Shown here piece after piece: positions 4,660 through 43,424 of a DNA stretch of 58,581 bases. The position numbers and the translations under genes were made by a program. The notes under the pieces are model-generated. The model saw only the letters and a program-made list of their open reading frames with translations. It was not told where the DNA came from and made no database searches. The DNA is from a virus (taxonomy: Duplodnaviria > Caudoviricetes), in IMG/VR virus record IMGVR_UViG_3300046170_000288, positions 1 to 58,581 of that record. One strand, given 5' to 3'. Every line of letters begins with the position of its first letter. Position 1 is the stretch's first letter.

Positions 4660-5479
4660 TATGCTGTCTTTGTACTGGGTTTAGTGTTCTGTAAATTCCT
4701 GCTAATCCTGATCCCGCACTAATTAAAGATTGTAATCCACTTGGATTAGGAGTTTGTTCTGTAATTGATTTACCAGGATAACCTGCAATTAATTGTGTTA
4801 CCCCTGTACCATATTGCTGTGCAGCAGTTAATGGTTGATTTAAATTTTGTATATTTAGTTGTTGGTTAGCAGTTAATTCATTTTGTCTTTGTGCTTGTAA
4901 TGCTCCACCTAATGTAGTTAGACCTGCAACTTGTTGACCTTGTAATGCAGGAACTTGTTGAGCTAAATTCATTTGATTAGAAAATTGATTTTGAGCTAAC
5001 TGGTTAGCTTGTGTAAATCCTTGGCCTAATAATTGTGCTTGTAGTGCTGCTCTGTTTCTATCAGAGTTTGACATATATTCTGCTTGTGCAACACCTTCTC
5101 TTGATCCACCAAAAGCACCAGAAGCAATAGCATTTTGTGAAATAGTACCTAAACCTTTTTGTGCTTGAAGATCATATTCTCCTAAAGTTGCATTAATAAC
5201 ATCTTGTTGATAAGGAGACATAAACTGTTGATAGCCTGTAGGCCCAGTAGCTGCTCCTGCAGCTTGAATGTATGGTTCATATGCACCAATACCCGCTTGT
5301 AATTGTTTAACAGCTTCTTGTTGTAGTGGATCTAATCCAGCTACATTTTGAGCACCATATACTTTGGAAAGATCAGCACCTTTATAATCACCGACTGCAG
5401 AAGAAAGATCTTCTAAAAAAGTTTTACCCGCTGCTTCTATAAATTCCGGTGGCCTGACTCTAGTTTCACTAACTGCCAT
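4652..5479 (-). CDS. Putative DNA transfer/pilot ejection protein
   Basis: 275-aa Q/A/G-rich ORF with FMSPYQQDVI, GAFGGSR and a Gly-rich amphipathic C-terminus, typical of podovirus pilot proteins. Confidence 0.6.
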   Translation of the reverse strand: MAVSETRVRPPEFIEAAGKTFLEDLSSAVGDYKGADLSKVYGAQNVAGLDPLQQEAVKQLQAGIGAYEPYIQAAGAATGPTGYQQFMSPYQQDVINATLGEYDLQAQKGLGTISQNAIASGAFGGSREGVAQAEYMSNSDRNRAALQAQLLGQGFTQANQLAQNQFSNQMNLAQQVPALQGQQVAGLTTLGGALQAQRQNELTANQQLNIQNLNQPLTAAQQYGTGVTQLIAGYPGKSITEQTPNPSGLQSLISAGSGLAGIYRTLNPVQRQHNE

Positions 5480-6699: not shown

Positions 6700-6727
6700 A
6701 ATTTATTATATCCAATAATCCCTTGTT

Positions 6728-6973
6728 TTACAACTTAGAATCACCGCCTATCGGCAATGCTTCTACGGTTACTTTAACGTCTCTTTTAATATCATCAGCT
6801 ACAGTATCTGTACCTGGATCTTGTACATCATTCATAGCTTCTGCGTCTGAATTATATTCTTGACCTGTTTTAATGTTTGTTAGCGTAACCTCTGTTTTTG
6901 GTGTTATAATCTTAACCGGTTTACCATTTATTACTTCTACTCTATATGATGCTTCTGTTTCTACAAATGACAT
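6728..6973 (-). CDS. Hypothetical protein (virion module)
   Basis: 81-aa ORF tightly packed in the operon. Confidence 0.6.
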   Translation of the reverse strand: MSFVETEASYRVEVINGKPVKIITPKTEVTLTNIKTGQEYNSDAEAMNDVQDPGTDTVADDIKRDVKVTVEALPIGGDSKL

Positions 6974-6974
6974 A

Positions 6975-7304
6975 TTAATCCCTATTTATTTCTAATATTG
7001 ATGCTACTACATGCAATCTATTTGCATCTGCAGCGGTTACTTTAAATACTTCGTTTTCTTCTAATATAACAGGTTGAGTTAGCAATTGTTCTGTTGCATG
7101 ACCTGCTACAGCCTTTACGTCAAACAATACAAATACATTACTAGATGCATCTGTTATAGTTGCTGTAATCGTACTACCATTATTACTATCATCACAAACT
7201 AAAATACTTTTTATAATAGCTCTTGAATCAGATGGTGCAGTATATAAAGTAGTAGCACTCGTAGTTGTTAAATCTAATTTTGCATTTTTATAAATATTAG
7301 CCAT
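6975..7304 (-). CDS. Putative small structural beta-rich protein
   Basis: 109-aa ORF (MAN.YKN...LYTAP), similar in pattern to 18489-18821. Confidence 0.55.
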   Translation of the reverse strand: MANIYKNAKLDLTTTSATTLYTAPSDSRAIIKSILVCDDSNNGSTITATITDASSNVFVLFDVKAVAGHATEQLLTQPVILEENEVFKVTAADANRLHVVASILEINRD

Positions 7305-7462
7305 TAAACCACGCGAACCTTTCTTGATCTTGTTTTTGTTCGTTTAAAAAAGTAGAATTTAATTGCTCTACAATCTATAGCAATTGCTCTATTAATTTGT
7401 TTTTGGTTAGAGACATCATACTCTTCTTTAGGCTCAGGTAATCTAACTACTACTTTTGCCAT
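7297..7462 (-). CDS. Small hypothetical protein, frameshifted; not in ORF track
   Basis: Manual translation MAKVVVRLPEPKEEYDVSNQKQINRAIA..VEQLNSTFLNEQKQDQERFAWFNG, extra base near 7375; overlaps both neighbours. Confidence 0.55.
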
Positions 7463-9063
7463 GTTTTATTTTCTTGATATCCTAAAATAGGAGGCATTAC
7501 AGTTAATATAGATCCTATAATCATTGACATTGGATAAATACAAAAATCAGCAAACGTTGAACCTATAGTTCTTTTACCATAAATTTTATGATTATAAAAA
7601 TCTCTTACTCTATCAGATGACCATTTATATTTAGCAACAAGATTATCAGCCATAACTCTTCCCCAAACATCATATCCTCTTTGCCAAATTTTAGATTGTC
7701 TTCTATGCCAAACTCTAAGTTTTTTAACTTCTAGTAATGTCATGTCACCACGTTCATTAGCTGCTGTACAACAATGAGTTCCACCACTATTATTGTTTCC
7801 ATTATCATTACCACTACCTGTATCTACTCCAGCTTCATCATAAGTTGATCCTCCATCAAAAATATTTCCAGACGGAGAAGCTTTACTATTATCACCAGCC
7901 ATAAAATTATCATCACTATATGGATCTGGATTTCCAAAATTCTGTTCTACAAAATCATAAGAACCATCTTGACCTCCACCCTGATTATAAGTTAAACCTG
8001 AAGTGCTTGTACTACCCTCATTATTATTATCTGCATATACAGTTGAATCTATAGTATTAATTCCTGCTGGATCAACTGATCCAGTAGTTCCTGTTCCATC
8101 TCCTGAACCTGTTATAGTAGTTGGATAGTTATCTAAATATGTAGGAGCTGTTGCTGTGTAAATACTTGTAGGTTTTTTCATAGGATCTAATATATCATCT
8201 AATATATTATCTTCTTCATCTTCTGAATACGTTGATGTTTTTATTTCTTCATCATAAGTAGGAATTTGATCATTAATAAATCCATCATCTATATCTTTTT
8301 GTTTAAGTTTATCGTTGAAAACAGTTGTTGCTTTAGCTGATCCACCAAAAAATTTAGCTTCTGCTTCATCAAGAGCATCTAATCTTTCTTGTAGATTACC
8401 TTTATAACCAGGTTTGCTCATAGTTTCTTTTATTTTATTTCTTCTTTTTTCAAAAGTTTGTCTAGTTATTTGGTTAGCATTGTAACCAGACATTACATTT
8501 GCTGCTGTATCATAATCACCACCATCAGATACAATTTGTCCAATATCATTTAATTGAAAACCTTGACCTAATAATTCATTTTCTAAAATAGCTCTTTGAT
8601 TTACAGGCATCTTATCACCTAAATATTCTAAACCTTTTCCGATAAAACTATTTTTTAAATAATTTGCAGCTGCACCAGGTATACCTGTTAGTTGTTTACC
8701 TTCATAATAATCTGGATACATATCCATTAATTTTGCTACTTCAGTACTTGTGTTAGGAATATTTGTACCTGTAAGAGAACCTCCTGGAGTTCCAATTAAA
8801 TTTCTTTCAGCAGCTTGTCTGTAACTATATGGACTATAATTATCTTCGGTTCTTGTTCTATTAGGATCAGAATTGTAAACACTAAATCCATCTCCACCAC
8901 CACCTTGTACAGGTAATATTCTTTTTACTGGTGCATTAGGATCTTGCGGTGGAATAGTTATAGGTGGAGGGTTAGTTCCAGGTTGATTAGTTCTATCGTA
9001 TTTAAAAGTCTTAGGTAAAGACTGATTTAAATACTGCATTGCTAAATCATATAAACTTGCCAT
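7450..9063 (-). CDS. Putative internal virion protein with acidic low-complexity linker and C-terminal HCCT...GY domain
   Basis: ORF track gives 7450-9114; likely start is the ATG at 9063 (MASLYDL), coupled to the upstream stop (TAATG). Confidence 0.55.
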   Translation of the reverse strand: MASLYDLAMQYLNQSLPKTFKYDRTNQPGTNPPPITIPPQDPNAPVKRILPVQGGGGDGFSVYNSDPNRTRTEDNYSPYSYRQAAERNLIGTPGGSLTGTNIPNTSTEVAKLMDMYPDYYEGKQLTGIPGAAANYLKNSFIGKGLEYLGDKMPVNQRAILENELLGQGFQLNDIGQIVSDGGDYDTAANVMSGYNANQITRQTFEKRRNKIKETMSKPGYKGNLQERLDALDEAEAKFFGGSAKATTVFNDKLKQKDIDDGFINDQIPTYDEEIKTSTYSEDEEDNILDDILDPMKKPTSIYTATAPTYLDNYPTTITGSGDGTGTTGSVDPAGINTIDSTVYADNNNEGSTSTSGLTYNQGGGQDGSYDFVEQNFGNPDPYSDDNFMAGDNSKASPSGNIFDGGSTYDEAGVDTGSGNDNGNNNSGGTHCCTAANERGDMTLLEVKKLRVWHRRQSKIWQRGYDVWGRVMADNLVAKYKWSSDRVRDFYNHKIYGKRTIGSTFADFCIYPMSMIIGSILTVMPPILGYQENKTWQK

Positions 9064-11286
9064 TATCTTCTTCCATCCGGTTGTATGTCTATTCGTAAGG
9101 TGCCAAAACGCCAAGATTCACTAACATCTGTATTTTCTATCTTGATGTTAACAAACCTGCCTCTGGCTCTAGTATCCTTTTTATCAGTACTTGCAGTAAT
9201 TGTAAAGGGGCTTAAAGAGGTATTAGTATCTGATTGTTGAGGATAACGCTTAACAGCAAGAGTTACTTTTGCATTACCTTGTAAATCTTTAAAATCAGGT
9301 ACAAATCTTCTCATAGCTAAAAATATTTCTCCAGATATACCAGGACCACTTGATCTACCCTGTGCATCTTTTTGTTTTGATTGTATATCAAAATCATATG
9401 ATTTTACAAATGAAGTAATGGTTGTAGTAGAACCATCTTGATTAATTTGATCTGTACCTACTTCATGTTCAAACAATTGAGTTTGACCTAAACCATCTTG
9501 ACCTACAACTGCAGGAAAAGTTCCAGATGATGTTGAATTAAATTTAGTTGCAATAGGTTTTTGATACACATTGGCATCAATCCAAGAAGTTCTAGCTTCG
9601 GTTCCAATATACCAAACACCACCTTTCATAGGTTCTCCATAATTAAATACAACATACTGATCATTATACTCAGAACTAGTTGATGGATAATACCAAACAA
9701 CTTCTGTAAATAGGTTATTAATACCTGCTGCAACTTGTTGACCTTTAGTTGTATCTGCTTGATCATATACATAATCTTCAACACTACATGGTAGTGATTT
9801 AACTGTACCATCAAACATAAAGAAGCCATTGTTAGACATCCAAAACGCAGCCCCATCTATTTCAACAGCTGCATTCTTACCAATCAATCCACAGTTAGTA
9901 CCAACTTGCTCGAACCCAAATGTAAAAGGTGCACCAATAAATTTCATTGTGTATAATGCATTATCTGTCCAAACAAGAATTGTTTCTTTTGCTTTTAATG
10001 AACCCATAATTTTTGTTCCATCTTGTAGTCTTTGAGAACCTGCTGAATTAATAGATGTTGGTGTATATTCATTTATATTTTCTTGATCAGAAAATCTTAT
10101 AAACATATCATCTTGTGTAGTAGTATCACCGATAGTTGTTTCTGTTCCTAGATGAATTAAGTGACGTGTTGTAGGTGAAACTAACGTAACCCTGGTTGCA
10201 GTTGGATTAGCAGATGTTGAAAAACCAGATGTGCTTGTTGATGCTCTAACTGTTAAAGGTGATGCTGCTCCTGCATTCCATGTAAATGTTTTACCGTTAG
10301 CAATAGTTGCAACTAACACTTGACCAAAGTTACTTAAACTCCAGAGGCCTGGTTCCAGAGTCACGTTAGAAGCTTTTACAGCATTTCCAAAACCGGTAAA
10401 GTTTGATGCATCTGTAACGGTTGCACCTGTTGAGTGAGCTTGACCATTCGAAGTACCTGTAGTTGCAGTTCCAAAAGCTCCTCTAGTAATACCTGTTAAA
10501 GTGTTTGTACCTTTTCCAGTATATGTAATTAATTCATTACCAACTGCTATAGTTCCTGTAGCAGGAAACCCAGAATTTGATGTAACGTTAATGACAGTTC
10601 CTGATCCACCGGTACCATTAGTGTCTGCAAGTAAAGCACCATTTAAAGTTGTTGTAAATGGACTTTGAACAGTACCACCATATTGTCCAATACCAAAACC
10701 ATAACCATAAGATTGTGCAGCAGGACCAACTTGTTCATATGGAATTACACTACATGAACCACCGCCAGCAGCTCCTGTTGTAGTTTCTGTTCCAGTAACA
10801 ATTGCAACTAGAGATGATGTAACTCTAGTTACTTGAAATAATTTATCTTCGAATGCAGCATCAGTTAATCCTATACCACTTGGTACAGTCACACTATCTA
10901 ATAAAATAATATCACCAGCTTGTAAATTATGATTAGATGAAAATGTTAGTGAAACTTCTTTTGTTGCATCTACAGCAGACATAACAACACTTGCAATTGT
11001 AGATTTTATAGGTGTAATATCGTAAAGTTGTCCTTCAAAATATATAAGTAAAAATTTATCTGTTCCTATTGCAACTGTATCTATTACCTTCTAAATCAAC
11101 AAATGCAAACTCACGTCTTGCAACTCCAACAATAGTGTCTGAAATTAGTGAAGACCAACCACCAACTTTTTCAGGTAGGTTATATCTAAATCTAACATTA
11201 TCACAATCAACCCATCTGTTTTCTGCACCAGATTCGGTATCTTGCTTATCTATTCCCGGTAATACTTTAAAATCAATTAGAGCCAT
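9063..11286 (-). CDS. Tail nozzle/packaged-DNA stabilization protein (P22 gp10-like beta-propeller); frameshift near 11075
   Basis: ORFs 11056-11286 (PGIDK...WVDCDNVRFR..PEKVGGW) and 9063-10982 (IRFSDQE...WRFGTLRIDIQPDGRR) join into one ~740-aa protein. Confidence 0.7.
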
Positions 11287-29383: not shown

Positions 29384-31888
29384 CTAACCTTTACGCATAA
29401 TTGCAACGTTTGGCATCATTGAATCAGAATTAGGTAGTGTTTTTCCTAAAATTGTCTTTTCAATTGATGTATCAGCTCTTAATTTTGCTAATTCTTCGTT
29501 TTGTTGAAGCTTTTCAGTTTGATTAACTTGATTCATCATTGTTTTCATCTTATCAAGGTCCATTCTCTCGTTAGCTTCCTTCTCTTTTCTAGCATTTTCT
29601 TGTGCTCTAAGGTCTAATTCTCTTGCTCTTAGTTTTGCAATAGGGTCATTGTCAAATTGTGAAGTAATTTTTTGTTCTTCCTTCATAAATTCTTCCATCA
29701 TGTCTGCAACTAGTTGAGCTTTTCTTGCTTCAATCTTTTGTGTTTCCTGCATAACCTGCATTTGTATTTGTTGAGCCATAGCTGGGTTCTGTTGAGCCTG
29801 CATTTGCATCTGTTGTAGCTGTTGCATCTCATCTCTGAACTCTAATTCAACTTGTTCTTGCGCCATTAGACTAATATGTTCAAAAATATTTTTCTCTAAA
29901 CTTGCCATTACCATTGGATTGTTTCTGGCCATGTTAGTTGCCATAAAATTTAAGTGTGCAGTGATGTGTGATCTATGATCTTGACCAGGGAAAGCTTGAA
30001 ACTGTGCTCCACCTAATGCATCAATGTGTTCTAATGCAGGATCTTTAGGCATAGGTTGCATTGGTTTATTTAATACTTGATCAATATCTTTTACACCTAA
30101 TGCTTCATACATATTTCTATATGCATTATATAAATTGTGCATTTGTGGATTTGATTGTGCCAGTTGGAGTTCCGTCTGCGCGAGGGAAATACGCTGTGTT
30201 TGAGAAAAAATATTGGGGTCAGCAACTGGCAATATATCTACCCTATCATCAAAGTCTTGTTGTTTAATCATTCTTTGACCCCCAACTACATCATACGGAT
30301 ATTCTTGAGGTAGATATAACTTGAATACTCTAGCCATAATTCTAAATTCATTTTTTAAAGCTGAGTAAATTCTTTTGTGAATCGCAGACATTGTTCTACT
30401 TCCTCTTTCAAGTAGAGCAACTGTTGTTCCAACCGCGGCTTGTTGATTGCCATCACCAACTTGTAGATCTGCAATTGATGCAAATCTTTGACCAGCGTTT
30501 ACTACAACACCCATCAAACTTAATAAAGTCTGTGATGGTTCTTTAAATGGTAACATCATAAACGAATCTCTTAAATTTCCACCAGGTGCATCTACATCTC
30601 TAAACTCACCAGGTTGAATTGATTGTGCATCATCTCTAATTCTAATACCACGTTGCTTGAATCCAGCAGGTAGGTTAGATAAAGTTCCTGCATCTAATAG
30701 TTGTCTAAGTGCACTTGTTGCAGTACGAGATAATCCACCAATCATATGAATTAAACCAAAACCATAAAAACCTAGTCCTGGTAAAAATTTAAAATGTACA
30801 AAGTATTGTATTTTAGATTTTTTAGGATCACCTACTTCATAGTTTCTTTTAATAGATAGAATCTCACGTGATCCTTCTTCTAAAGTTACAATGTAAGGTA
30901 TTTTAATTCCTGAGGGCTCACCAGTCTCTGGATCAGAATCTTCAAAACCATCTAGGTCTAAATCCACATGACATTCTAATAATGTATAAACATCTTCTTC
31001 TTTTGATTTAGTTGTACCTTCCAACTCTCTTTCTTTTTTCTCAACATCAGATTCACCTGCAGTTGGTTTTCCTAAATCAACGTCTCTGTAAAAACCAGCG
31101 ACTTGTTGTTTTCTTAAATCATTTTCTGAAACTTTTATTCGATGAATAATTGCTTCCGCATCATCTAATGAGGTAGCTGTGTACGGAACAATTAAATCAT
31201 CTGCTGGAACAAACTTTGATACTGCTCTTTGTTCCATGTCATCATAGTAAACTTTTTTAAAAGCAGAACCTGCAAGAGGAAGATTAAATAACATTTGATC
31301 AAACTCGGGTTCATACTCTTTCATTTTTTCCATGATTTCATAATTCATAAAATCTTTAACACGTTGTGCTTGTTGTGTTTTCTCCGGAGTTGATAAACCC
31401 ATCACTTGAGTTCTAACCGGACCATTTGCAGGTAATAATTCTTTATAAGCTAATGCTTGAAACTGAGTAACAGCTTCTGCTAGTACTGGGTGAGTTGCAC
31501 CTGAAGCTCCTTGAAACGGTTCTGTTCTTTGACTGTATTTAAAACCTAAAAGATCTAAACCTTGGATATAAGCTTTTTCCCATTCTTTTCTTGATGAAGT
31601 ATAATCCATATACTTACCATTTAAATCTGAAGCTAAAGTTGCTAATACATCATCGGGTAAAAATTCTGCAAGGTTTGCGTAATGCTCGTCACCACCTTCA
31701 ATAGATGCTGCGGCCGGATCAAGATCAATATCAACAGACCCATCTTCATTTTCTTGAATGTCAATTGGTCCAGGATCTTGTGCCTGGTCTTCTGCTTGTT
31801 CTACTAATTGTTCTTGAACTTCATCTTCACTAGGAAGTTCGAATTCTTTTCTGACTTCGTTGGGAAGTGCTTTGTCTATATCCGCCAT
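29384..31888 (-). CDS. Portal protein
   Basis: 834 aa; EPF.GAS...HP.LAEA..QFQA, LPLAGSAFKKVYYD, FYGFGLIH, GTT.ALLE; long C-terminal coiled coil as in P22-like portals. Confidence 0.85.
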   Translation of the reverse strand: MADIDKALPNEVRKEFELPSEDEVQEQLVEQAEDQAQDPGPIDIQENEDGSVDIDLDPAAASIEGGDEHYANLAEFLPDDVLATLASDLNGKYMDYTSSRKEWEKAYIQGLDLLGFKYSQRTEPFQGASGATHPVLAEAVTQFQALAYKELLPANGPVRTQVMGLSTPEKTQQAQRVKDFMNYEIMEKMKEYEPEFDQMLFNLPLAGSAFKKVYYDDMEQRAVSKFVPADDLIVPYTATSLDDAEAIIHRIKVSENDLRKQQVAGFYRDVDLGKPTAGESDVEKKERELEGTTKSKEEDVYTLLECHVDLDLDGFEDSDPETGEPSGIKIPYIVTLEEGSREILSIKRNYEVGDPKKSKIQYFVHFKFLPGLGFYGFGLIHMIGGLSRTATSALRQLLDAGTLSNLPAGFKQRGIRIRDDAQSIQPGEFRDVDAPGGNLRDSFMMLPFKEPSQTLLSLMGVVVNAGQRFASIADLQVGDGNQQAAVGTTVALLERGSRTMSAIHKRIYSALKNEFRIMARVFKLYLPQEYPYDVVGGQRMIKQQDFDDRVDILPVADPNIFSQTQRISLAQTELQLAQSNPQMHNLYNAYRNMYEALGVKDIDQVLNKPMQPMPKDPALEHIDALGGAQFQAFPGQDHRSHITAHLNFMATNMARNNPMVMASLEKNIFEHISLMAQEQVELEFRDEMQQLQQMQMQAQQNPAMAQQIQMQVMQETQKIEARKAQLVADMMEEFMKEEQKITSQFDNDPIAKLRARELDLRAQENARKEKEANERMDLDKMKTMMNQVNQTEKLQQNEELAKLRADTSIEKTILGKTLPNSDSMMPNVAIMRKG

Positions 31889-34864: not shown

Positions 34865-36222
34865 TAAAGTCCCATCAAGTAGTTTAGGCCGCCTCGATTA
34901 TTATTTTTTCTTCTAGTTACTTTATCAAACTCACCTTGGAATTCTAAAGTATCTCCTTTTGTCTCTAATAATTTATCATAAGCTTCAGGATCTTGTCTTC
35001 TATTTTTAATCATCATAAGCACTCTACCTTGAGTATCTTTATCTAATTCCATAATTTGATCAGCCATGTCTTCATCTATCTCAGGAAAGTTTTCTAATAG
35101 TTTTTCTTTACTTAATTTAAAACCTTCTGGTACAGGTGGTACGTCTAAAATTTCTCTTGATTCTATTTTAATTGCATCTGGTTTGTTTCTAGCTTCAAAT
35201 TCAGAAATTAATTGTTGTGTAGTTTTTTCTGGTTGATCAACTTTGTCTGCAGTTGTAATTGCATCTTCACCAAATTTATTCATAATTTTACCAATAGCAC
35301 CTTTTAAAGATTCTACTCCAGATACTAATTTACCAACCTTTGGTATTTTTTTAACAAGTGATTTTTTCTTAGGATCATCTGGTCCATCAGCAAAACCCAT
35401 ACGACCACCATAAGCTTTTAAGTCTCTTGGTTTACCTACTTCAAAATATGTATTTTCGTAAAAGTCTACAGTGTCATCAATATTAATACCTTTATCTTTT
35501 GCATTACCTTTTATTTTTGCCATGGTAGTTGAAAAGTCATCTGCTTCTGTGTCTCTATACATAATATTTAATACAGTATCATCATCAAGACCTTGCTCTA
35601 ATAAATCATCATACATATGAGATTTGATTGAAGCACCTACATCATTACGTTGATAAACTCCTTGTTTAATATCATCGACAATATCTGCTACAAACATTTT
35701 TTGTTTATCTGTTTTAGCACCTAATTTTTTAATAATGCCTTCAGCTCTAAATAATTTTTTATCATTTAATGCTTTAGTATATGCTTCTATACTTTCTTCA
35801 CCCATGATATTTCTTAATTTATCACCTTGACCTTCAATTGTTACATCACCAAAATCATCAAACACATCTGTTCTAATTATACCAGATTTAAGATCAGGCC
35901 CTGTTGCCTGACTCGGTGATTCTTCGACTCTTTTACCTCTTTTATCTACACCCGGTTTAAATGATACATCTAATACTTCACCAGTTTTATTTCCTGGAGC
36001 CTGACTCATAATGCCTTGCTCTTTATAGTCATCTAAAATAGAAATGTTATCACCTTGAGCTTGAATTTTGTTTTTAGCTTCTTCTCTAATCATTTGATTT
36101 TCAACAGCATTAGGTTCTCTGTTTTTAATAGATCTAAAACCTTTTAGTAAAGCACCATAAGCTTCATCTATTGATTTATAAATTTTACCTATTTTTGGAA
36201 TTTTTTTGATGAACTCATCCAT
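34864..36222 (-). CDS. Hypothetical (putative internal virion) protein
   Basis: 452 aa; AYGGRMGFADGP and terminal GGLNYLMGL. Confidence 0.6.
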   Translation of the reverse strand: MDEFIKKIPKIGKIYKSIDEAYGALLKGFRSIKNREPNAVENQMIREEAKNKIQAQGDNISILDDYKEQGIMSQAPGNKTGEVLDVSFKPGVDKRGKRVEESPSQATGPDLKSGIIRTDVFDDFGDVTIEGQGDKLRNIMGEESIEAYTKALNDKKLFRAEGIIKKLGAKTDKQKMFVADIVDDIKQGVYQRNDVGASIKSHMYDDLLEQGLDDDTVLNIMYRDTEADDFSTTMAKIKGNAKDKGINIDDTVDFYENTYFEVGKPRDLKAYGGRMGFADGPDDPKKKSLVKKIPKVGKLVSGVESLKGAIGKIMNKFGEDAITTADKVDQPEKTTQQLISEFEARNKPDAIKIESREILDVPPVPEGFKLSKEKLLENFPEIDEDMADQIMELDKDTQGRVLMMIKNRRQDPEAYDKLLETKGDTLEFQGEFDKVTRRKNNNRGGLNYLMGL

Positions 36223-37695
36223 TAATAATATGTCCTTTGTTGTTGAGGTAGTTCTTCGTCCTCATAGTCTTCAGGATGCTCAATCAAACCACCCTGTCTA
36301 AATCTCATAACAGCTTGGGTCATGGAGTCCACTAAATCGTCATGATCTCCATATGGAAAGGCTGCACATTCTTCAATAACTTCTTGTGCAAAGTCCATAT
36401 CTTTGGGCGCCCATATTCTCCCTGACTCAAACAGCGGAGAGACACTGTTAACCCTCGTATGTTTATCGTTACCTTTAGAGGGTGTGAAGTTTATAACAGG
36501 TATCCCCATTTTCCGCAACTCATAAGTTAGTGGTAATCCAGATGCTTTAGACTCAATGATTACTGTCTCAGGCTTCCAATATCCATATTGATCCATGGCG
36601 ACCCTACGTAACTCAGGAAACTCAAAACGATCCTTAATTGCATCTAATAATATCAAACATTGTCCACTATCCTCACTTGGTGTAAACACACCCCAAGTAG
36701 TAATAGCAGAATAGTCGGCAGTTTGTTTTTTCATAAACGCTGTATCATAAGATTGAATAACATGTTCTAGCGGTGGTAAATCTTTTTCCCAATCTTGCCA
36801 CCATTCTCTTTTAATCATGGCACCTTCTTCACCGGTTGGGTTCTGCATGTATTGTGCATTCCATTTTGAAAGAGGGATAGATGCTTTGACCGCTTCTAAA
36901 TCCTTCAAGTTCCAGTATTCAGGCCACAGGGGTTTTTTGTTTGGTAGGATTGCAGGGAACTCAATTACTTCCCATTGATCTGCTTTAGGTTCTTTTTGTG
37001 CTTTAATCAAACGACCTGCTAAATCTTTTTCATTCCATCTAGTCATTACAATTACAATTGTTCCACCAGGTTGAAGACGTTGTCTTGGACCAGATGTATA
37101 CCACTCATAAGTTCTATCTAACGCTTGAGCGTTCATTGCATCTTGTTCAGTATGTGGGTCATCAATAATCAAGAGATCGGCACCCCTTCCAGTAATTGCA
37201 GAACCAACACCAGCAGCATAGTATTCACCACCTTGTTGGGTTTCCCATTTACCAGCAGCTTGAGAATCTTCTTTGAGTCTTGTTTGAAATACTTCTTTGT
37301 ATTCAGGAGAATCCATAAGTTGTTTTGCTTTACGACCAAACCTTACAGATAATTCAGTTGTGTTAGTTGATTGAATAATTTTTAGTTTAGGATTACGACC
37401 TACCATCCAAGCAGGTAACTAGATAAGATGCAAACTCAGACTTTGTATGTCTAGGTGCCATATTAATAATTACACGTTTAACTTTACCTTTTGCTATATC
37501 ATTAAATTTTTTAGCAACTTGTTTGTGATGTGATCCTTCAATAAAATCTGGCCAGACGTGTTTAACAAAAGCCATAAAGTCATCTTTAATATCAGCTTGT
37601 TTTTTCTTATCTTTCCATTTAGCCATATACAAAGCTAATTGTCTTTTTACATCAGGTGGTAATTTCTCAAACTTTTTTAACTTATCTATATCCAT
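36222..37695 (-). CDS. terL: Terminase large subunit; frameshift near 37420
   Basis: Walker A-like INMAPRHTKSE, Walker B LLIIDDP, IVMTRW, nuclease QSYDTA...DYSA and HDDLVDS. Confidence 0.9.
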
Positions 37696-38808: not shown

Positions 38809-38977
38809 TCCAACTCCTTTTCATTCTTCTCATCTCAGAATATAATTCGCCCATATGCAATTTATCACAAGTCTTAACCCACTCGATTAATTCCTCACGC
38901 ATGGACTTTTGTTCTTCGTAGGCTTTCGCCTTGTTCTTGTCTATTGTTTCAAAATGTTCTTCGTTTTGTTGTGCCAT
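38801..38977 (-). CDS. Early hypothetical protein
   Basis: Likely start MAQQNEEHF at 38977 (TAATG-coupled, GAGG). Confidence 0.55.
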   Translation of the reverse strand: MAQQNEEHFETIDKNKAKAYEEQKSMREELIEWVKTCDKLHMGELYSEMRRMKRSWND

Positions 38978-39168
38978 TAGTACCTCACTTTCCAACTGTC
39001 TTTCGCAGTTCTATATGCTTGTTTATCTAAATCAAAATAAGTGATTAATGCAGTACCAACTTTGCTAGTCCAATATCTGCACTTGTCATCAAACTTACCA
39101 AATCTAGTTATGTGTTTTTTATCTTTGTTAGAATAATATGTTATTCTAAATGTTTTATCTTTTATCAT
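38977..39168 (-). CDS. Early hypothetical protein (SH3/WYL-like beta pattern)
   Basis: 63 aa; F.ITYY...R.G...YFDLDK..YR. Confidence 0.5.
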   Translation of the reverse strand: MIKDKTFRITYYSNKDKKHITRFGKFDDKCRYWTSKVGTALITYFDLDKQAYRTAKDSWKVRY

Positions 39169-39184
39169 ATATACCTTTCTGTTA

Positions 39185-39220
39185 TGGGACTATCTTATAG
39201 GATAGTCCCAAGATTGTCAA
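39185..39220 (-). promoter_or_regulatory. Sigma70-type promoter with a 10-bp inverted repeat
   Basis: TTGACA-N17-TAAGAT; TGGGACTATC-N6-GATAGTCCCA overlaps the -10 box. Confidence 0.7.
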
Positions 39221-39222
39221 AC

Positions 39223-40194
39223 TTAATTTAGACTTTCTTCGTATTTTTTTCTAGCCAATATCTTCGCCTCTCTTGATTGATTTTTATTCTTCATACCTTT
39301 AATCATACTAGCCAAGTTGCTTGGATTGTAGATAGTCAAACCTGTTGAGTTAGTTCTAATTAACTCTGCCTCATCAACTTGAATACCTAGTTCAGTTGCA
39401 AGTTCAATACCCTCACTCAAATAACGATATGCTTTCAATCCAATCTTTAATTGATCGCATTGTTTTTGAATTGTATCAATCCATGTTTGGTGTTTAGATA
39501 CAACATTACCTTTTGCAATTCGCCAATCATTAAAAGTTTCATACTCGTCTTTAGTACATGCGATTGCTCTTGATCTGCAATAAGATGTTCCAATGACATC
39601 AAGATAGTATTGGTCATTAAAAGTTTTAGTCATGCCTGTATTATTATCACTACTAGAATAACTATTACCACTATATCCAAGTGCTTTCATACAAGCCTCA
39701 ACATGTTTAGTCTTATGTGGGTTGTCCTTGTTCTCGGATTGTTGAGCATAGATATCTGGGTTGCAATCCATAGCTTTTAAATCTTCTCTAAAATATGCAA
39801 CTGCAAACTCTTTACCCTCGTCATCCACTATACTCACTACCATTTAGATTACCAAATAAACCAAAATCAAAATGTGATTTAGTTTCTTTTGCGTCGCCCT
39901 CATCATCTAAATCCTCATTGTGTGCAAAGTAAAAACATTTATCTTTTGCAACAACATCACAAGGGTTGACCATATTTCTTTTTGAAAGTGTCTTAAACAG
40001 AAACATCTTCTGGTGGATATGATCTTTCAACAACATCAACTTGCAAGTCTATGTGCTTGTTCATATTGTCTATCAACATCTTCTCTTGCTTGAAGAAATG
40101 CTTCTCGTTCTTGAGTGTCCTCGTTCTCAAAGACATTTTTTATTTTATTAAAGAGTTTGTTTCGCAACTCTGTATTCATTCTTATTTTTGTCAT
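39223..40194 (-). CDS. Early hypothetical protein (~320 aa); several frameshifts
   Basis: Starts MTKIRMNTELRNKLFNKIK at 40194 with GAAAGG; fragments appear as ORFs 39821-40039 and 39223-39843. Confidence 0.6.
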
Positions 40195-40228
40195 TTTGAC
40201 CTTTCTGTTAATTAATTTTTATTTTTTT

Positions 40229-40267
40229 GTTTTACTACTTGACAATAGGATTGTCAAGGATTATATA
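40229..40267. promoter_or_regulatory. Overlapping divergent sigma70-type promoters
   Basis: Palindrome TTGACAAT-AGG-ATTGTCAA (40239-40257); plus strand TTGACA-N17-TATATA; minus strand TTGACA-N17-TAAAAC. Confidence 0.7.
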
Positions 40268-40276
40268 TTAATTATG

Positions 40277-40795
40277 TTTTTTATTTGTTTATGTTCAGAT
40301 AAAAAATTAGATTTGGGGTGTATCATAACCATCACCCCAAGTTGACACTCTAAACAAGTGGGATGATTAGCACTCTGGAAGAGAGCCATTGAGTGCTACT
40401 GATCCCTGATCCAATGGTAGTAGCATCTAGACCATGCTTGACTGGAGATTGGATCTGGGATCAGTCATTATTGACTGTGGAGATAAACACTATAACACGG
40501 TGTGCGCTAGGATTCCCGTATGTCATGCAATGGGGCGTCATACCACCCGCGTAGCATAGTGACTGATCATTATTTGCTGGACCATTGCTATGCTTGTCTA
40601 GTCGACTTGCAAGCATTACTGGTACAGCCCACTGAAAGGTGATGGTCCTGCTAATAATAGTATCAGTAAGAGTACACCAGCGTCCAAATCTTGCCTCTGG
40701 CATTTCCCTGTACGTTAGCGATGATGGGCAACCTAGCAATGTGTGTAACACCATGGTGCGCCGAGTTCCCTGATCAGGATGGCGCGCTGGTATAT
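40277..40795 (+). ncRNA. Putative large structured non-coding RNA (tandem stem-loop array)
   Basis: About seven consecutive stems with G-U wobbles and U-U mismatches that favour the plus strand; GC-rich; no credible ORF; directly downstream of a promoter. Confidence 0.65.
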
Positions 40796-40806
40796 GATTG
40801 AAGGAT

Positions 40807-40832
40807 CAAGCGGCAAGCTCCAAGCAGCAAGC
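40807..40832 (+). repeat. CAAGCNN heptamer array 1 (4 copies)
   Basis: CAAGC at 40807, 40814, 40821, 40828. Confidence 0.9.
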
Positions 40833-40834
40833 GC

Positions 40835-40863
40835 TTGACAGCTGGGTCAGGATAGTATAGGAT
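40835..40863 (+). promoter_or_regulatory. Sigma70-type promoter
   Basis: TTGACA-N17-TAGGAT, followed by GAAAGGA and the ATG at 40883. Confidence 0.7.
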
Positions 40864-40882
40864 ACAATTGAAAGGAATAATT

Positions 40883-41014
40883 ATGAAAATAAAAATATAT
40901 GAAGCTGGTGAACAGCTAAACAGAGTTGCTAACGCCCTGGAAGAAATTATCCGGATGGTGAAGGAAGATCAAGAGAGATCTAGAAAGTACATGGAAGAGA
41001 GGAAGGATGACTGA
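40883..41014 (+). CDS. Small early protein; not in ORF track
   Basis: 43 aa MKIKIYEAGEQLNRVANALEEIIRMVKED... Confidence 0.55.
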   Translation: MKIKIYEAGEQLNRVANALEEIIRMVKEDQERSRKYMEERKDD

Positions 41015-41159: not shown

Positions 41160-41359
41160 GAATTAAAAATAATGATTTGTTGCCGTGGTTCACTGATGAC
41201 CACGGCACGCTGCCGCAAGGTTACCTGGACCATTGCCAAGAATTTTTTAATAGCCTGAAGCGCCAAGCCTCAAGCGGCAAGCTTCAAGCGTCAAGCCTCA
41301 AAAAACAATTGCATAAACCAGGGACCCGTGTTAAAAATAGATTCAACAGAAAGATATAA
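41156..41359 (+). CDS. Small early protein; C-terminus runs through the heptamer array
   Basis: 67-aa ORF; the QASS repeats come from CAAGCNN. Confidence 0.5.
   Translation: MRIKNNDLLPWFTDDHGTLPQGYLDHCQEFFNSLKRQASSGKLQASSLKKQLHKPGTRVKNRFNRKI
41257..41301 (+). repeat. CAAGCNN heptamer array 2 (5 perfect, 2 degenerate copies)
   Basis: CAAGC at 41264, 41271, 41278, 41285, 41292; followed by TTGCAT-N17-TAAAAA. Confidence 0.9.
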
Positions 41360-41361
41360 TT

Positions 41362-41965
41362 ATGAAAATAAAAGAAGCATTAAAAATAACAGACTCATTT
41401 ACAAGAACAAGCAAGATGCCTGGCCTGAGCTACAGCCTGCCAGCATGGGCATGTCAAACTGGTTCGAAGCTTAGACTAGTTAAAACTTCACCGTGTTACG
41501 GCTGTTACGCCTTGAAGGGTAACTATACCAGGTATCCAGCAATCAAAGCAGCTCAGTATAGAAGACTGGACGCAATCAATCACCCGCTATGGGTCGAGGC
41601 TATGTCTACAAAAATACGTGGCCAAAAATGGTTTAGATGGCATGACGCCGGCGATGTACAGAGCAGCGAGCATATGCAAAAAATTATAGAAGTGTGTAAG
41701 CTCACACCAAACACCAAACACTGGCTGCCAACGCAAGAGCGGCAATACCTGCCAGCACCTGAAGAGGTTCCGGAAAATTTAATTATAAGATTATCAAGAT
41801 CAAAAGTCGATGGACCAGCAGGGCAATGCCTGGACCCATGACTCAGGCGTCACGACTCAAGAAGGTGAGCGGACTTGTCCAGCCCCGGATCAGGGCGGCG
41901 CTTGTAAAGATTGTCGAGCATGCTGGAATAAAGATATTAAATCTGTTATATACGGTAAACATTAA
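41362..41965 (+). CDS. Gp88-like (radical-SAM-like) Fe-S protein; frameshift near 41822
   Basis: SKMP...SLPA..C...CYGCYA, FRWHDAGD; reconstructed C-terminus CPAPDQGGACKDCRACW...YGKH. Confidence 0.65.
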
Positions 41966-42132
41966 TGCACGTATTCAAACATCCTAAATATTACGAAGAG
42001 ATGCGCCAGCGCGCGAAAAAATTTCAGAGAGAAGAGAAGCTCAAGCTGCAAGCGTCAAGCACCAAGCCACAAGCTTCAAGCGACAAGCCTCAAGCACCAA
42101 GCGATTCAAAGATCTCGGAGCAGGATTCATAA
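41965..42132 (+). CDS. Small early protein; not in ORF track
   Basis: 55 aa MHVFKHPKYYEEMRQRAK..., TAATG-coupled; tail is translated repeat. Confidence 0.45.
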   Translation: MHVFKHPKYYEEMRQRAKKFQREEKLKLQASSTKPQASSDKPQAPSDSKISEQDS

Positions 42133-42174
42133 CCCGAGCACCAAGCCTCAAGCTTCAAGCCACAAGCAGCAAGC
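42042..42174 (+). repeat. CAAGCNN heptamer arrays 3 and 4 (9 and 5 perfect copies)
   Basis: CAAGC every 7 bp from 42042 to 42098 and from 42142 to 42170. Confidence 0.9.
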
Positions 42175-42458
42175 TCTCTTATATCTTTTCCCTCATAAAG
42201 TTTTGGAAGCATGGAACAGGCATCAAGAACTAAGATAAAAGTATTGCGTGGATGTTTCACGTGGAACGCAATTTGGTGTGGAGAAAATGTGATCTTGTTT
42301 GTTTTTGTATATTTCAGTTCAACAGTGAAAAAGACGCCGTTATTATTATAACCCAATAGATCGGGAGTACCAGGAACGCTAAGATTTTCAATCCTAATCC
42401 AGGATATTTGAGTAATATTTTTCTTAACATTTCCATAAAATTTAGTCTCCGGTTTCAC
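42090..42458 (-). CDS. PD-(D/E)xK nuclease (VRR-NUC/Holliday-junction resolvase-like)
   Basis: E..F...V, RIEN....GTPDL, VELK, S..QIAFH. Confidence 0.7.
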   Translation of the reverse strand: MKPETKFYGNVKKNITQISWIRIENLSVPGTPDLLGYNNNGVFFTVELKYTKTNKITFSPHQIAFHVKHPRNTFILVLDACSMLPKLYEGKDIRELAACGLKLEAWCSGYESCSEIFESLGA

Positions 42459-42482: not shown

Positions 42483-42707
42483 TTATACTTTTTTGATAAC
42501 GTCGCCCATTCTCCACGTTTCTGGCTTGATAGTCATAACAAGTCGGTGAGTTTCTCTGGCTCCCAATAGTTTATTTTCCATCAGTTGTAAAGAAGTAATA
42601 TCAAAATGTTGTCCATCAGGAAGACGAACTTGAACTCTAGCCTCTTGGGCTACCGGTGACTTTAACATTTTATCTAGTGTCTGTCTTAATGCTTTTCCAC
42701 TCAACAT
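42483..42707 (-). CDS. Hypothetical protein
   Basis: 74-aa ORF. Confidence 0.5.
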   Translation of the reverse strand: MLSGKALRQTLDKMLKSPVAQEARVQVRLPDGQHFDITSLQLMENKLLGARETHRLVMTIKPETWRMGDVIKKV

Positions 42708-42747
42708 AAGTTGCTTTTATATCATTGTTGTGTTAAAAAGCAATACT

Positions 42748-42933
42748 ATGAAAAAAGAAAAATGGGATGGTAGATCAAGACCTTCTGATGATTTGTATAG
42801 ACAAGAATGGAATAGAATATTTAATCCAGTAGCAAAAGAAGTAAGAACTCCACAATATAAATCACAAACAGTAAAACCCAAAAAGGGAAAAGGAAGTTTT
42901 AAGAGAGGACAATGGGATTACCAAAGAAATTAA
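42748..42933 (+). CDS. ArfA-like (alternative ribosome rescue factor A) peptide
   Basis: Likely start MKKEKWDGRSR at 42748; NPVAKEVRTPQYKSQTVKPKKGKGSFKR matches the ArfA signature. Confidence 0.6.
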   Translation: MKKEKWDGRSRPSDDLYRQEWNRIFNPVAKEVRTPQYKSQTVKPKKGKGSFKRGQWDYQRN

Positions 42934-43424
42934 CTGAACAACAAATTAAATTTGCCAATCTACTAATATCTGAACAAGGTAGAATGACAGCCACAGCTTG
43001 TGCTATTGAAGCAGGTTATGCAAAAGACTCAGCTAGACAGGCTGCAAGTAAATTACAGAATCCAAAATTATTTCCATTGGTGGTCCAGTATATTGGTGAG
43101 TTAAGAGAAGAGTGGCAAAAGCAATACGAAGTCACATTCGGCAATCACATATCAGAATTAGGTAAACTTAGAGATGAGGCTAGAGATAAGAAAGCTTGGT
43201 CAGCTGCAGTCAACGCTGAAGTAGCTAGAGGTAAAGCTGCAGGTTTATATATTGAACAGAAGATTATCCGTACTGGTAAATTAGAAGACTTATCGACAGA
43301 AGAATTAGAATCACGGATGAAACAAATAATTGACGACTATTCTCCGATTCTAGAGGGAGTTGAATTCGAAGAATTAAAAGAAAAAGTGAAAGAATCACCA
43401 AAGAAGCAAAAAGAATCAAACTAA
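42912..43424 (+). CDS. terS: Terminase small subunit
   Basis: LTEQQ.KF...ATACAIEAGYA..SA...ASKL HTH, A.V.AE..RGK..GLY, LS.EELE. Confidence 0.75.
   Translation: MGLPKKLTEQQIKFANLLISEQGRMTATACAIEAGYAKDSARQAASKLQNPKLFPLVVQYIGELREEWQKQYEVTFGNHISELGKLRDEARDKKAWSAAVNAEVARGKAAGLYIEQKIIRTGKLEDLSTEELESRMKQIIDDYSPILEGVEFEELKEKVKESPKKQKESN

What the first reader, a model, noticed from the sequence alone, without database searches (positions are those of the whole stretch)
40277..40795. ~520-nt promoter-driven array of tandem RNA stem-loops with large loops
Seen: GC-rich non-coding DNA starting just after a TTGACA-N17-TATATA promoter folds into consecutive stems: 40277-40287/40296-40306; 40311-40320/40333-40342; 40368-40375/40391-40398; 40399-40415/40448-40464; 40459-40471/40556-40568; 40569-40585/40642-40658; 40676-40693/40775-40791. 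The imperfect pairs are G-U wobbles or U-U mismatches on the plus strand, which points to RNA rather than DNA cruciforms. The larger stems enclose 30-85 nt sub-structured loops, including a GAAA-tetraloop hairpin near 40630-40641; each of the four large loops contains CUAG (weak statistically). I do not recognise it as tRNA, tmRNA, CRISPR, an intron or a known ribozyme. Inference: an undescribed early phage ncRNA, or a polycistronic small-RNA array whose stems are scaffolds and whose loops are variable guides, antisense elements or decoys. Possible partners are the adjacent small early proteins or the Gp88-like protein.
Basis: partly seen in the sequence, partly recalled or inferred. Interest (0 to 1): 0.85.

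Follow-up and report, generated by a model that had tools for sequence, protein, structure and literature searches.

The report
Modular structured RNA of ocean phages
A roughly 520-base non-coding stretch of an abundant ocean phage encodes a folded RNA built from interchangeable hairpin modules, one of them an already catalogued RNA motif of unknown function, and its loops carry a sequence signature suggesting that copies of the RNA stick to one another.

Summary
Six of the seven stems pair exactly as written. They fold better than shuffles and recur in relatives of Pelagibacter phage HTVC027P.

The last 121 nt (40672-40792) are not new. They are Rfam RF02976, Flavobacterium-1 RNA, at 103.6 bits against a cut-off of 58.9. 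The rest matches no Rfam family.

Comparison of about 200 viral contigs shows a modular plus-strand RNA behind a conserved sigma-70-like promoter:
- Two sequence-conserved stems, D and F, carry conserved U.U mismatches. Their tips are hypervariable structured inserts, and the same insert types occur in both stems.
- E is a conserved pseudoknotted domain with covariation support.
- Fl-1 is optional.

Wobble asymmetry points to plus-strand RNA: G.U 53 against A.C 2. The region is not coding. No antisense targets were found in the phage genome.

New clue: at fixed loop positions the sequence varies but stays a perfect palindrome, including adjacent central bases. Cryo-EM work on OLE and GOLLD used the same signature for symmetric kissing loops between RNA copies. 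The best reading is a self-associating multi-domain phage RNA. Its function is unknown. The transcript's strand and ends have not been shown directly.

The parts
40238..40267 (+). Promoter P1. The -35 TTGACA is at 40239-44, the spacer is 17 nt, and the -10 TATATA is at 40262-67. The -35 lies in a 21-nt palindrome (40238-40258) that also places TTGACA on the minus strand.
   Evidence: Read from the sequence. Conserved in HTVC027P. A strict promoter pattern lies upstream of the first module in 73 of 101 complete arrays. Function as a promoter is inferred.
40277..40306 (+). Leader hairpin A, AU-rich.
   Evidence: 10 Watson-Crick pairs and 1 G.U. z = -4.2 on the plus strand and -2.0 on the minus strand.
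40311..40342 (+). Leader hairpin B.
   Evidence: 10 pairs, z = -3.6. HTVC027P has a different stem sequence at the same place that also pairs.
40366..40398 (+). Hairpin C. Its insert type is also found inside D scaffolds of other contigs.
   Evidence: 8 Watson-Crick pairs, z = -3.2. A like insert sits in D of L146 and L179.
40398..40465 (+). Module D. The scaffold arms are 40398-40412 and 40451-40465, with a conserved U.U mismatch. The 38-nt insert (40413-40450) has UCUAGA at its tip (40426).
   Evidence: 116 distinct instances. U.U at position 10 in 104 of 116; compensatory changes at positions 12, 13 and 15. The stem runs on into the insert by a mean of 4.4 bp, against 0.6 bp in shuffled inserts. 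z = -5.3.
40461..40569 (+). Domain E, with conserved flanks and a pseudoknotted core. Its closing helix (40461-70 with 40556-65) overlaps the foot of D. The self-complementary loop GGAUUCC lies at 40510-40516.
   Evidence: Alignment A3 (23 sequences): 98.2% of cells paired, 11 pairs with changes on both sides, 0 of 500 shuffles reach the covariation score, slid controls 24-51%. In loci found without using E, 19 of 20 positions of the 3' flank are invariant.
40562..40666 (+). Module F. The scaffold arms are 40569-40583 and 40644-40658, with two conserved U.U mismatches; in this phage the stem extends to 40562 and 40666. The 60-nt insert holds the palindromes AGUCGACU (40600) and CUUGCAAG (40606) and a GAAA hairpin.
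   Evidence: 62 distinct instances. U.U in 57 of 62 and 60 of 62. z = -4.2. Palindromes.
40672..40792 (+). Flavobacterium-1 RNA (Rfam RF02976). The tip of its 3' hairpin is the palindrome CCUGAUCAGG (40769-78).
   Evidence: 103.6 bits against a cut-off of 58.9, model positions 1-121 of 121. In 88 distinct instances the longest palindrome in the 3' part is CGUGCACG in 28, CCUGAUCAGG in 15 and CGUCGACG in 12.
40807..40863 (+). CAAGCNN heptad repeats (40807-40832), then promoter P2: TTGACA at 40835-40, a 17-nt spacer, TAGGAT at 40858-63. A ribosome-binding site and the ATG at 40883 follow. This marks the downstream limit of the RNA element.
   Evidence: Conserved in HTVC027P. No intrinsic terminator was found between 40792 and P2.

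Best explanation
The region encodes a plus-strand, multi-domain structured RNA of about 520 nt. Host RNA polymerase makes it from promoter P1, upstream of the GP88-like/ArfA/small-terminase gene group.

**Build.** It is a chain of self-contained modules:
- short leader hairpins;
- two long, sequence-conserved 'holder' stems (D and F) with fixed U.U mismatches, each presenting an exchangeable structured insert at its tip;
- a conserved pseudoknotted domain (E);
- in this phage, the Flavobacterium-1 motif.

**Proposed mechanism.** Loops at fixed positions are self-complementary: the E loop, the insert tips and the tip of the Fl-1 3' hairpin. They pair with the same loop of a second copy as symmetric kissing loops. 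The RNA would then act as a dimer or higher assembly, as shown for OLE, ROOL and GOLLD, not as an antisense guide.

**Status of each step.**
- Shown here: the structure, modularity, strand preference and palindrome covariation.
- Inferred: transcription from P1, pairing between copies, and any role of the assembly (a stable particle or a platform for the inserts).
For: **Structure and strand.**
- Modules fold well below shuffles.
- D and F stems show compensatory changes and continue into the variable insert.
- Under a rule blind to strand, the stem extensions hold 618 Watson-Crick pairs, 53 G.U and 2 A.C.
- The E pseudoknot has covariation support.
- Fl-1 matches its model on the plus strand.

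**Modularity.**
- Among 101 complete distinct arrays, P-D-E-F-G occurs 34 times, P-D-E-F 13, D-E 10 and P-D-E 6. There are also duplicated D, E or F modules, and Fl-1 followed by F.
- In a sister group of the same phage family, Fl-1 sits about 6 kb away, behind the last small gene of another operon.
- The same insert types occur in D, in F and in other stems.

**Palindrome signature.**
- In one insert family, the 8-mer at a fixed place takes 12 different forms in 64 distinct contexts, and all 12 are perfect palindromes. The search word did not include that 8-mer.
- In E subfamily 2 (28 sequences chosen by an outside anchor), pairs 1-8, 2-7, 3-6 and 4-5 are Watson-Crick in 27, 28, 27 and 28 of 28. 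The adjacent central pair switches between AU (16), UA (7) and GC (5). Slid controls give 0-19.
- Palindromes of 8 nt at the E loop: 37 of 94 against 5.6 expected.
- 8-nt palindromes in insert representatives: 52 against 18.8 +/- 4.4 in shuffles.
- Predicted tetraloops that are palindromic: 9 of 46 against 1 in 16 expected, p = 0.002.
- Kretsch et al. (bioRxiv 10.1101/2024.12.08.627333, section 6 read) used exactly this covariation at adjacent bases to support solved symmetric kissing loops in OLE and GOLLD.

**Weak support for expression.** Contigs from 4 RNA libraries of 3 studies cover 40170-40837 at summed depth 83-993, against 0.5-155 at 42675-43175.
Against: - No direct evidence gives the transcript's strand, ends or abundance. 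The runs were held as contigs only, and contigs of relatives add to the depth.
- In the window alone, palindromes are not enriched: 4 of 8 nt or more against 2.1 +/- 1.4, with 15% of shuffles as high.
- The window's own E loop is an odd palindrome, with a central U.U in a self-duplex.
- 29 of 94 E sequences lack an even palindrome of 6 nt or more at that place. By my own inspection of that list, several carry an ordinary short hairpin instead.
- Palindromes have no strand. They could reflect a DNA-level cause.
- No terminator separates the RNA from the downstream genes, and in some contigs an ORF follows E directly. The RNA may therefore be only a 5' leader.
- Folding energy is as low on the minus strand.
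- Oligomer formation was not and could not be tested here.
Confidence: 0.45

Rival explanations
1. A processed 5' leader. The array is the untranslated leader of the P1 transcript. The long D and F stems, about 20 bp or more, are cleavage or stability sites, for example for host RNase III. This would resemble the stems that flank rRNAs or the T7 early-RNA processing hairpins. The pieces would have no function of their own beyond mRNA stability or timing.
For: - No terminator lies between the array and the genes.
- In some contigs E is followed within about 14 nt by a ribosome-binding site and an ORF.
- Stems reach about 19-25 bp with internal mismatches.
- The genes downstream in HTVC027P form a temporal class of their own (PMC12753301, section 12 read).
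Against: - RNase III has little sequence specificity (recalled), yet the stems are nearly invariant in sequence.
- E and Fl-1 have many invariant unpaired bases and a pseudoknot, far more than stability needs.
- The insert families are themselves conserved and structured.
- A second promoter, P2, makes the genes independent of the leader in this phage.
- The phage encodes no RNase III. The host was not tested.
Confidence: 0.22
2. A decoy or sponge array. The modules bind and hold back host or phage proteins, or small molecules. The inserts vary fast because they track variable host targets.
For: - Hypervariable, swappable inserts on constant holders.
- Conserved U.U mismatches within CUG/CUG suggest a specific binder.
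- Strong consensus promoter.
Against: - No partner is known.
- The host group has few defence systems: only restriction-modification systems were found, in 19 SAR11 genomes (PMC11066056, passages read).
- No known aptamer or mimic was detected in the inserts.
Confidence: 0.12
3. A DNA-level element. The inverted repeats and palindromes would serve as a packaging or replication site, or as recombination hot spots, in the double-stranded or single-stranded phage DNA. The region lies between the large and small terminase genes.
For: - Position between TerL (36222-37406, minus strand) and TerS (42912-43424).
- Palindromes have no strand.
- The minus strand folds equally well.
- Module shuffling implies frequent recombination here.
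Against: - G.U 53 against A.C 2 in the stem extensions points to the plus-sense single strand.
- An RNA covariance model matches on the plus strand.
- The pseudoknot covaries.
- A sequence-specific DNA-binding protein would not tolerate 12-17 different palindromes at one place.
- GATC density here is matched elsewhere in the genome.
- The genome holds no integrase or reverse transcriptase.
Confidence: 0.06
4. A metabolite-sensing leader. Domain E, alone or with Fl-1, is a riboswitch-like aptamer. It would switch between a long-range closing helix and a local 5' hairpin to control the genes downstream.
For: - Two mutually exclusive pairings are built from invariant bases: 40461-70 with 40556-65, or the local hairpin 40462-67 with 40472-77.
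- In some contigs E ends a few bases before a ribosome-binding site.
Against: - In most arrays F, Fl-1 and P2 lie between E and the first gene.
- Fl-1 also occurs at the 3' end of an operon.
- No expression platform was identified.
- The alternative pairings never vary, so covariation cannot support either.
Confidence: 0.05
5. A guide or antisense array. The variable loops would base-pair with host or phage nucleic acids.
Against: - Matches to the phage's own genome are at chance level.
- The inserts are internally structured, not open.
- The same inserts recur across many contigs.
- No nuclease or Cas-like partner was seen. The host genome could not be searched.
Confidence: 0.04

Closest known systems
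Flavobacterium-1 RNA motif (Rfam RF02976; from Weinberg et al. 2017, PMC5737381)
   Same: 40672-40792 is a full-length member at 103.6 bits, as is the HTVC027P copy at 90.2 bits. Of 16 related contigs scanned, 12 hold a match above the cut-off.
   Different: - Here the motif is only the 3' fifth of a larger modular RNA, and it is optional.
- Every instance I found lies in viral contigs of the HTVC027P kind.
- None was found in 151 sampled genomes of the class that holds Lutibacter.
- The main text of the 2017 paper does not mention the motif.
GOLLD, ROOL and OLE: large ornate RNAs that form homo-oligomers (Kretsch et al., bioRxiv 10.1101/2024.12.08.627333)
   Same: - Large, multi-domain and phage-associated (GOLLD, ROOL).
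- Function unknown.
- Variable linker regions.
- Loop tetranucleotides that switch between palindromes, read there as symmetric kissing loops.
   Different: - No match to their Rfam models.
- Smaller, at about 520 nt.
- Built of separable modules that are gained, lost, duplicated and moved.
- No tRNA genes in the window.
- Multimerisation is not shown here.
phi29 packaging RNA (recalled, and named in Kretsch et al. section 6)
   Same: A structured phage RNA behind a promoter, encoded among packaging genes, that works as a ring through loop-loop pairing.
   Different: - pRNA loops pair left with right, not each with itself.
- No sequence or model similarity was tested, because I hold no model of it.
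- This phage has a small terminase. That phi29 lacks one is recalled.
RNase III processing stems of T7 early RNA and of rRNA operons (recalled)
   Same: Long stems with internal mismatches that enclose a functional RNA, or separate units of one long transcript.
   Different: Here the stems are conserved in sequence, not only in shape. Cleavage was not tested.
HIV-1 dimerisation initiation site (recalled, and named in Kretsch et al. section 6)
   Same: A variable 6-nt palindrome in a hairpin loop. GUGCAC, one of its two common forms, is also the core of the commonest 8-mer here.
   Different: Unrelated RNA. Here several different palindromic loops occur per molecule.

Membership tests
Rfam RF02976 Flavobacterium-1 | Covariance-model score above the curated gathering score | tested here: met
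   103.6 bits against 58.9, E = 2.9e-19.
Rfam RF02976 Flavobacterium-1 | Full-length match with the consensus helices | tested here: met
   Model positions 1-121 of 121, with 4 non-canonical pairs marked.
GOLLD / ROOL / OLE (Rfam models) | Match to the family's covariance model | tested here: not met
   No such hit in the whole window at the gathering score, nor at E up to 10 in 40100-41000, nor at E up to 0.5 in 19 related loci.
Homo-oligomeric RNAs with symmetric kissing loops (OLE L9.3 or GOLLD L21a type) | Loop sequence varies but stays palindromic, with covariation at adjacent central bases | tested here: met
   - E subfamily 2: the central pair is Watson-Crick in 28 of 28, with three pair types.
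- One insert family: 12 of 12 variant 8-mers are palindromic.
- The window's own E loop is an odd palindrome.
Homo-oligomeric RNAs with symmetric kissing loops | Physical dimer or multimer of the RNA | not testable with these tools
   Needs a native gel, mass photometry or cryo-EM of the transcript.
RNase III processing sites | Double-stranded stem of about two helical turns | tested here: met
   D has 15 bp plus a mean 4.4-bp extension. F has 15 bp plus 3.4 bp, and about 22-25 bp in the window.
RNase III processing sites | Cleavage by RNase III; the enzyme present in phage or host | tested here: inconclusive
   No RNase III domain in the phage genome. The host genome could not be reached. Cleavage is not testable here.
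CRISPR array or repeat-derived RNA | Direct repeats separated by unique spacers | tested here: not met
   The conserved words are inverted, not direct, repeats. The CRISPR-DR43 hit is 18.7 bits against a cut-off of 35.
Integron attC sites | A tyrosine recombinase (integrase) encoded in the same element | tested here: not met
   PF00589 is absent from the 93%-complete genome; the control search hit all 14 control genomes.
Retron non-coding RNA | An adjacent reverse transcriptase | tested here: not met
   PF00078 is absent from the genome.
tRNA / tmRNA | Detected by ARAGORN | tested here: not met
   0 genes in the window.
Protein-coding gene | A conserved open frame, with length changes in multiples of three | tested here: not met
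   Insert lengths modulo 3 are 52/48/53. The longest stop-free frame covers a median 68% of the D-to-E core; 15 of 109 reach 90%.

The most novel reading that the evidence does not exclude
The array is a natural RNA construction kit. It would be a multivalent RNA that assembles with itself, with several different self-complementary loops per chain. The product would be a defined oligomer or a network inside infected SAR11 cells. The constant D and F stems would display exchangeable structured inserts on its surface. This would be a third kind of phage RNA assembly beside ROOL and GOLLD, in one of the most abundant phage groups in the sea.
Probability: 0.3. Interest if true: 0.9.

Novelty: new variant of a known kind. 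Interest (0 to 1): 0.78.

Why it matters
- **Abundance.** HTVC027P-type phages are counted among the most abundant viruses in the ocean (PMC11066056, passages read). Their genome papers and their infection transcriptome do not mention this RNA.
- **A home for an orphan motif.** The finding places the Rfam motif Flavobacterium-1 in pelagiphage-like viral contigs and shows that it is one module of a larger RNA.
- **New motifs.** It adds at least three RNA motifs that match no Rfam family (D, E, F) and a large set of small structured inserts that move between holders.
- **A testable idea.** The palindrome covariation turns 'function unknown' into a concrete test: does the transcript form dimers or larger assemblies? 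If so, RNA-only assemblies extend to streamlined marine phage-host systems. A cultured model (HTVC027P on HTCC1062) and published RNA-seq already exist.

Tried and rejected
- **Genome-contig scan wasted.** The degenerate Fl-1 word had 14 specified bases. It returned 120 hits, all chance: none carries the Fl-1 core.
- **Fl-1 in cellular genomes.** RF02976 was not found in two genomes reached through those loci, nor in 151 sampled genomes of one bacterial class. In both searches the control genomes also gave nothing, so this shows little.
- **Relatives of a virus record** cannot be drawn, so no SAR11 genome was searched for targets, mimics or RNase III.
- **Antisense targets in the phage genome:** chance level.
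- **GATC clustering (P1 pac-like idea).** 9 GATC per 700 nt here, but another region has as many; GATC is not avoided genome-wide, at 230 against 180 expected.
- **CUAG as a signal.** Only 1.8-fold enriched in insert representatives (30 of 103 against 16.6). UCUAGA occurs 9 times against 1.3 expected. It is better seen as one of many palindromes.
- **The same palindrome twice in one array,** which would allow loop-loop pairing within a chain. The 39 of 121 cases are mostly AAGCTT from the heptad repeats.
- **RNA contig ends.** Contigs from three studies start at 40642-40645. I read this as an assembly break at the hypervariable insert, not an RNA end.
- **Neighbouring proteins.** Pfam, PHROGs, NCBIfam and PDB sequence searches found nothing for the small proteins nearby. 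The exceptions were GP88, a weak sub-threshold WYL_2 hit for 38977-39168, and PHROG hits for the nuclease-like ORF 42090-42458.
- **Fold search for the GP88-like protein.** Foldseek against the PDB gave no match at E <= 0.001.
- **Literature.** Searches for 'Flavobacterium-1', 'pelagiphage' with 'non-coding RNA', 'HTVC027P', and phage structured RNA with kissing loops found no description of this RNA. Paper supplements were closed.

Full report
**Where it is.** The window is a 58.6-kb viral record, estimated 93% complete. Its only cultured relative in 50,697 phage records that matches this region is Pelagibacter phage HTVC027P (79% of 671 nt covered, 73% identity).

The finding lies in a gap of about 690 nt without credible genes. 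To the left a leftward operon begins: small genes, then the large terminase at 36222-37406 and the portal at 29384-31888. To the right lies a short rightward gene group:
- three small ORFs;
- a GP88-family protein at 41362-41841;
- an ArfA-like ORF at 42730-42933;
- the small terminase at 42912-43424.

**The observation.** The only non-pairs are one U.U in stem 4 and two in stem 6. The GAAA hairpin, the four CUAG and the TTGACA-N17-TATATA promoter are all present. Each module folds far better than dinucleotide shuffles, with z from -3.2 to -5.3 for A, B, C, D and F and -2.4 for E. Stem 7 is not supported. That part is a full-length match to Rfam RF02976, Flavobacterium-1 RNA (103.6 bits against 58.9), which folds differently. 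Nothing else in the region matches any of 4,227 Rfam families, and the window holds no tRNA or tmRNA.

**Relatives.** One used an Fl-1 word, the other an E word. Together they gave 204 loci. The contigs belong to one phage kind with shared gene order.

Among 101 complete, distinct arrays the commonest order is promoter-D-E-F-Fl-1, as in the window (34). Next come promoter-D-E-F (13), D-E (10) and promoter-D-E (6). There are also duplicated D, E or F modules, and Fl-1 followed by F. About half the loci were fetched with the Fl-1 word, so the share of arrays with Fl-1 is biased upward.

In a sister group the D-E(-F) array keeps its place upstream of the GP88 gene. Fl-1, however, lies about 6 kb away, directly after the last small gene of the replication operon and before a hairpin. 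A more distant record, phage 023Pt_psg01, has a lone D module upstream of its GP88 gene. The modules are therefore separable units.

**Stems and strand.** D (116 distinct instances) and F (62) are nearly invariant in sequence.
- The U.U mismatch in D is kept in 104 of 116 instances. The two in F are kept in 57 and 60 of 62.
- Where the stems do vary, they vary on both sides. D position 12, for example, switches from A-U to G-C in 20 instances.
- Pairing continues into the otherwise unrelated insert by 4.4 bp (D) and 3.4 bp (F) on average, against 0.6 bp in shuffled inserts.
- These extensions were counted under a rule that treats G.U and A.C alike. They hold 618 Watson-Crick pairs, 53 G.U and 2 A.C. 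That asymmetry is expected for a plus-sense RNA and not for duplex DNA or a minus-sense transcript.

**Domain E.** The flanks of E are almost invariant, even in loci found without using E (19 of 20 positions of the 3' flank). Its core comes in subfamilies. In the window's subfamily (23 sequences) I tested a structure with a closing helix, an inner helix, a short hairpin and a pseudoknot.
- 98.2% of cells are paired.
- 11 pairs show changes on both sides.
- No shuffle of 500 reaches the covariation score.
- Slid controls pair at 24-51%.

The closing helix never varies, so it is neither supported nor refuted. It competes with a local hairpin and with the foot of D.

**Inserts.** The 153 distinct inserts of 100 nt or less fall into 103 clusters at 70% identity. 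Ten clusters occur in both D and F. One family was traced with a gapped word. It turned up in D, in F and in at least three other stems. Inserts are modestly more structured than shuffles (mean z -0.68, n = 90). Their lengths are spread evenly over the three frames, and no open frame is conserved, so the region is not coding. Matches to the rest of the phage genome are at chance level.

**The palindrome signature.** At fixed loop positions the sequence changes between relatives yet remains a perfect palindrome.
- In the traced insert family, the 8-mer between two constant words has 12 forms in 64 distinct contexts. All 12 are palindromic, with eight different central tetranucleotides.
- In E, 65 of 94 distinct sequences carry a palindrome of 6 nt or more at the same place, in 17 forms. 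Palindromes of 8 nt occur in 37, against 5.6 expected.
- In E subfamily 2, defined by an anchor outside the loop, all four mirror pairs are Watson-Crick in 27-28 of 28. The two adjacent central bases switch among AU, UA and GC.
- In the 3' part of Fl-1 the longest palindrome is CGUGCACG, CCUGAUCAGG or CGUCGACG (28, 15 and 12 of 88).
- Across insert representatives, 8-nt palindromes number 52 against 18.8 +/- 4.4. Predicted tetraloops are palindromic in 9 of 46.

Adjacent bases cannot pair within one chain. Kretsch et al. used exactly this kind of covariation to back the symmetric kissing loops seen by cryo-EM in OLE and GOLLD. In the window the candidate loops are:
- UCUAGA at 40426;
- GGAUUCC at 40510, which in a self-duplex has a central U.U;
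- AGUCGACU at 40600;
- CCUGAUCAGG at 40769.

All four differ from one another. By itself the window shows no significant excess of palindromes; the case rests on the family.

**Expression.** Contigs from four RNA libraries of three studies cover the array at summed depths of 83-993. A stretch 2 kb to the right reaches 0.5-155. These are contigs, so they give no strand, no ends and no level. Contigs of relatives add to the depth at conserved words. The published infection transcriptome of HTVC027P places the two genes just downstream in a temporal class of their own, peaking at 6-9 h. It says this phage has no RNA polymerase of its own and does not mention non-coding RNA. No terminator separates the array from P2 and the genes, and in some contigs an ORF follows E directly. 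The RNA may thus be the leader of an mRNA, a separate product, or both.

**Reading.**
- Firmly shown: a modular, plus-sense, structured RNA element made of known (Fl-1) and undescribed (D, E, F, inserts) parts.
- Most likely, but inferred: it pairs with copies of itself through palindromic loops.
- Unknown: what it does.

The rivals are a processed leader, a decoy, a DNA element, a riboswitch-like sensor and a guide array. They are weighed in their own sections.

**Limits.**
- Both main scans were capped.
- The host genome could not be searched.
- Supplements of the papers were closed.

Noticed in passing
40807-40832, 41252-41301, 42037-42104, 42137-42174: Tandem heptad repeats CAAGCNN (3.7 to 8.6 copies) lie just upstream of the -35 box of P2-type promoters here and in related contigs. 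They also run into the ends of small ORFs, giving 'QASS' peptide repeats. ORF 41156-41359 hits NCBIfam NF041631, 'KRQAASG repeat spurious translation', at 24.5 bits, below the cut-off of 30. They may be an upstream promoter or activator element.
   Followed up: partly
41362-41965: The GP88-family gene is split by a frameshift near 41810-41840. The pieces are 159 aa and 51 aa. The second piece matches residues 154-200 of 200-aa relatives at 94% identity. Whether this is real or an assembly error is open.
   Followed up: partly
41362-41965 (model built on relative P0001): The GP88-family protein is widespread, with 2,524 cluster representatives at E <= 0.001. It folds with pLDDT 96. Eight of its nine best fold matches are radical-SAM enzymes (spore photoproduct lyase, QueE, lipoyl synthase, viperin), at a middling Z of 5.0-6.0. 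Invariant or nearly invariant cysteines are C31, C45, C48, C172, C181, C184 and C187.
   Followed up: partly
42730-42933: An ORF with the ArfA (alternative ribosome-rescue factor) domain lies just before the small terminase gene (26.6 bits against a cut-off of 25.5). The same has been reported for HTVC027P gp30 (PMC12753301, section 12 read).
   Followed up: partly
40238-40258: The -35 box of P1 lies in a 21-nt palindrome that puts TTGACA on both strands. It could be a shared site for the two divergent promoters or an operator. It is conserved in HTVC027P.
   Followed up: no
39168-40169: The minus-strand genes next to the array have the highest summed depth in the RNA-library contigs, at 246-9,957 across the four runs. 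No family was found for them.
   Followed up: no
L026, L108, L073 and similar loci, about 130-170 nt after the Fl-1 start: In the sister group, Fl-1 follows the stop codon of a small gene. A conserved hairpin comes next, then a convergent small ORF. After that comes a P1-like promoter with the same palindromic -35.
   Followed up: partly
L020, L059, L091, L100, L015, L131 (just after P1): Other arrays start with a different leader. By eye its two stems interleave, so it may be a small pseudoknot. Not tested.
   Followed up: no
36222-37695: The large-terminase ORF of 394 aa matches only positions 332-708 of a 760-position profile. An adjacent 100-aa ORF (37393-37695) overlaps its start. The gene may be split like the GP88 gene. 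That ORF had no Pfam hit.
   Followed up: no
L328 onward (for example L343, L361, L375): The insert family with the constant word GGUAAACAAUU is common in viral contigs: 75 of 116 pattern hits have the expected upstream word. It looks like a small three-way junction with its own covariation. It would merit description as a motif in its own right.
   Followed up: partly
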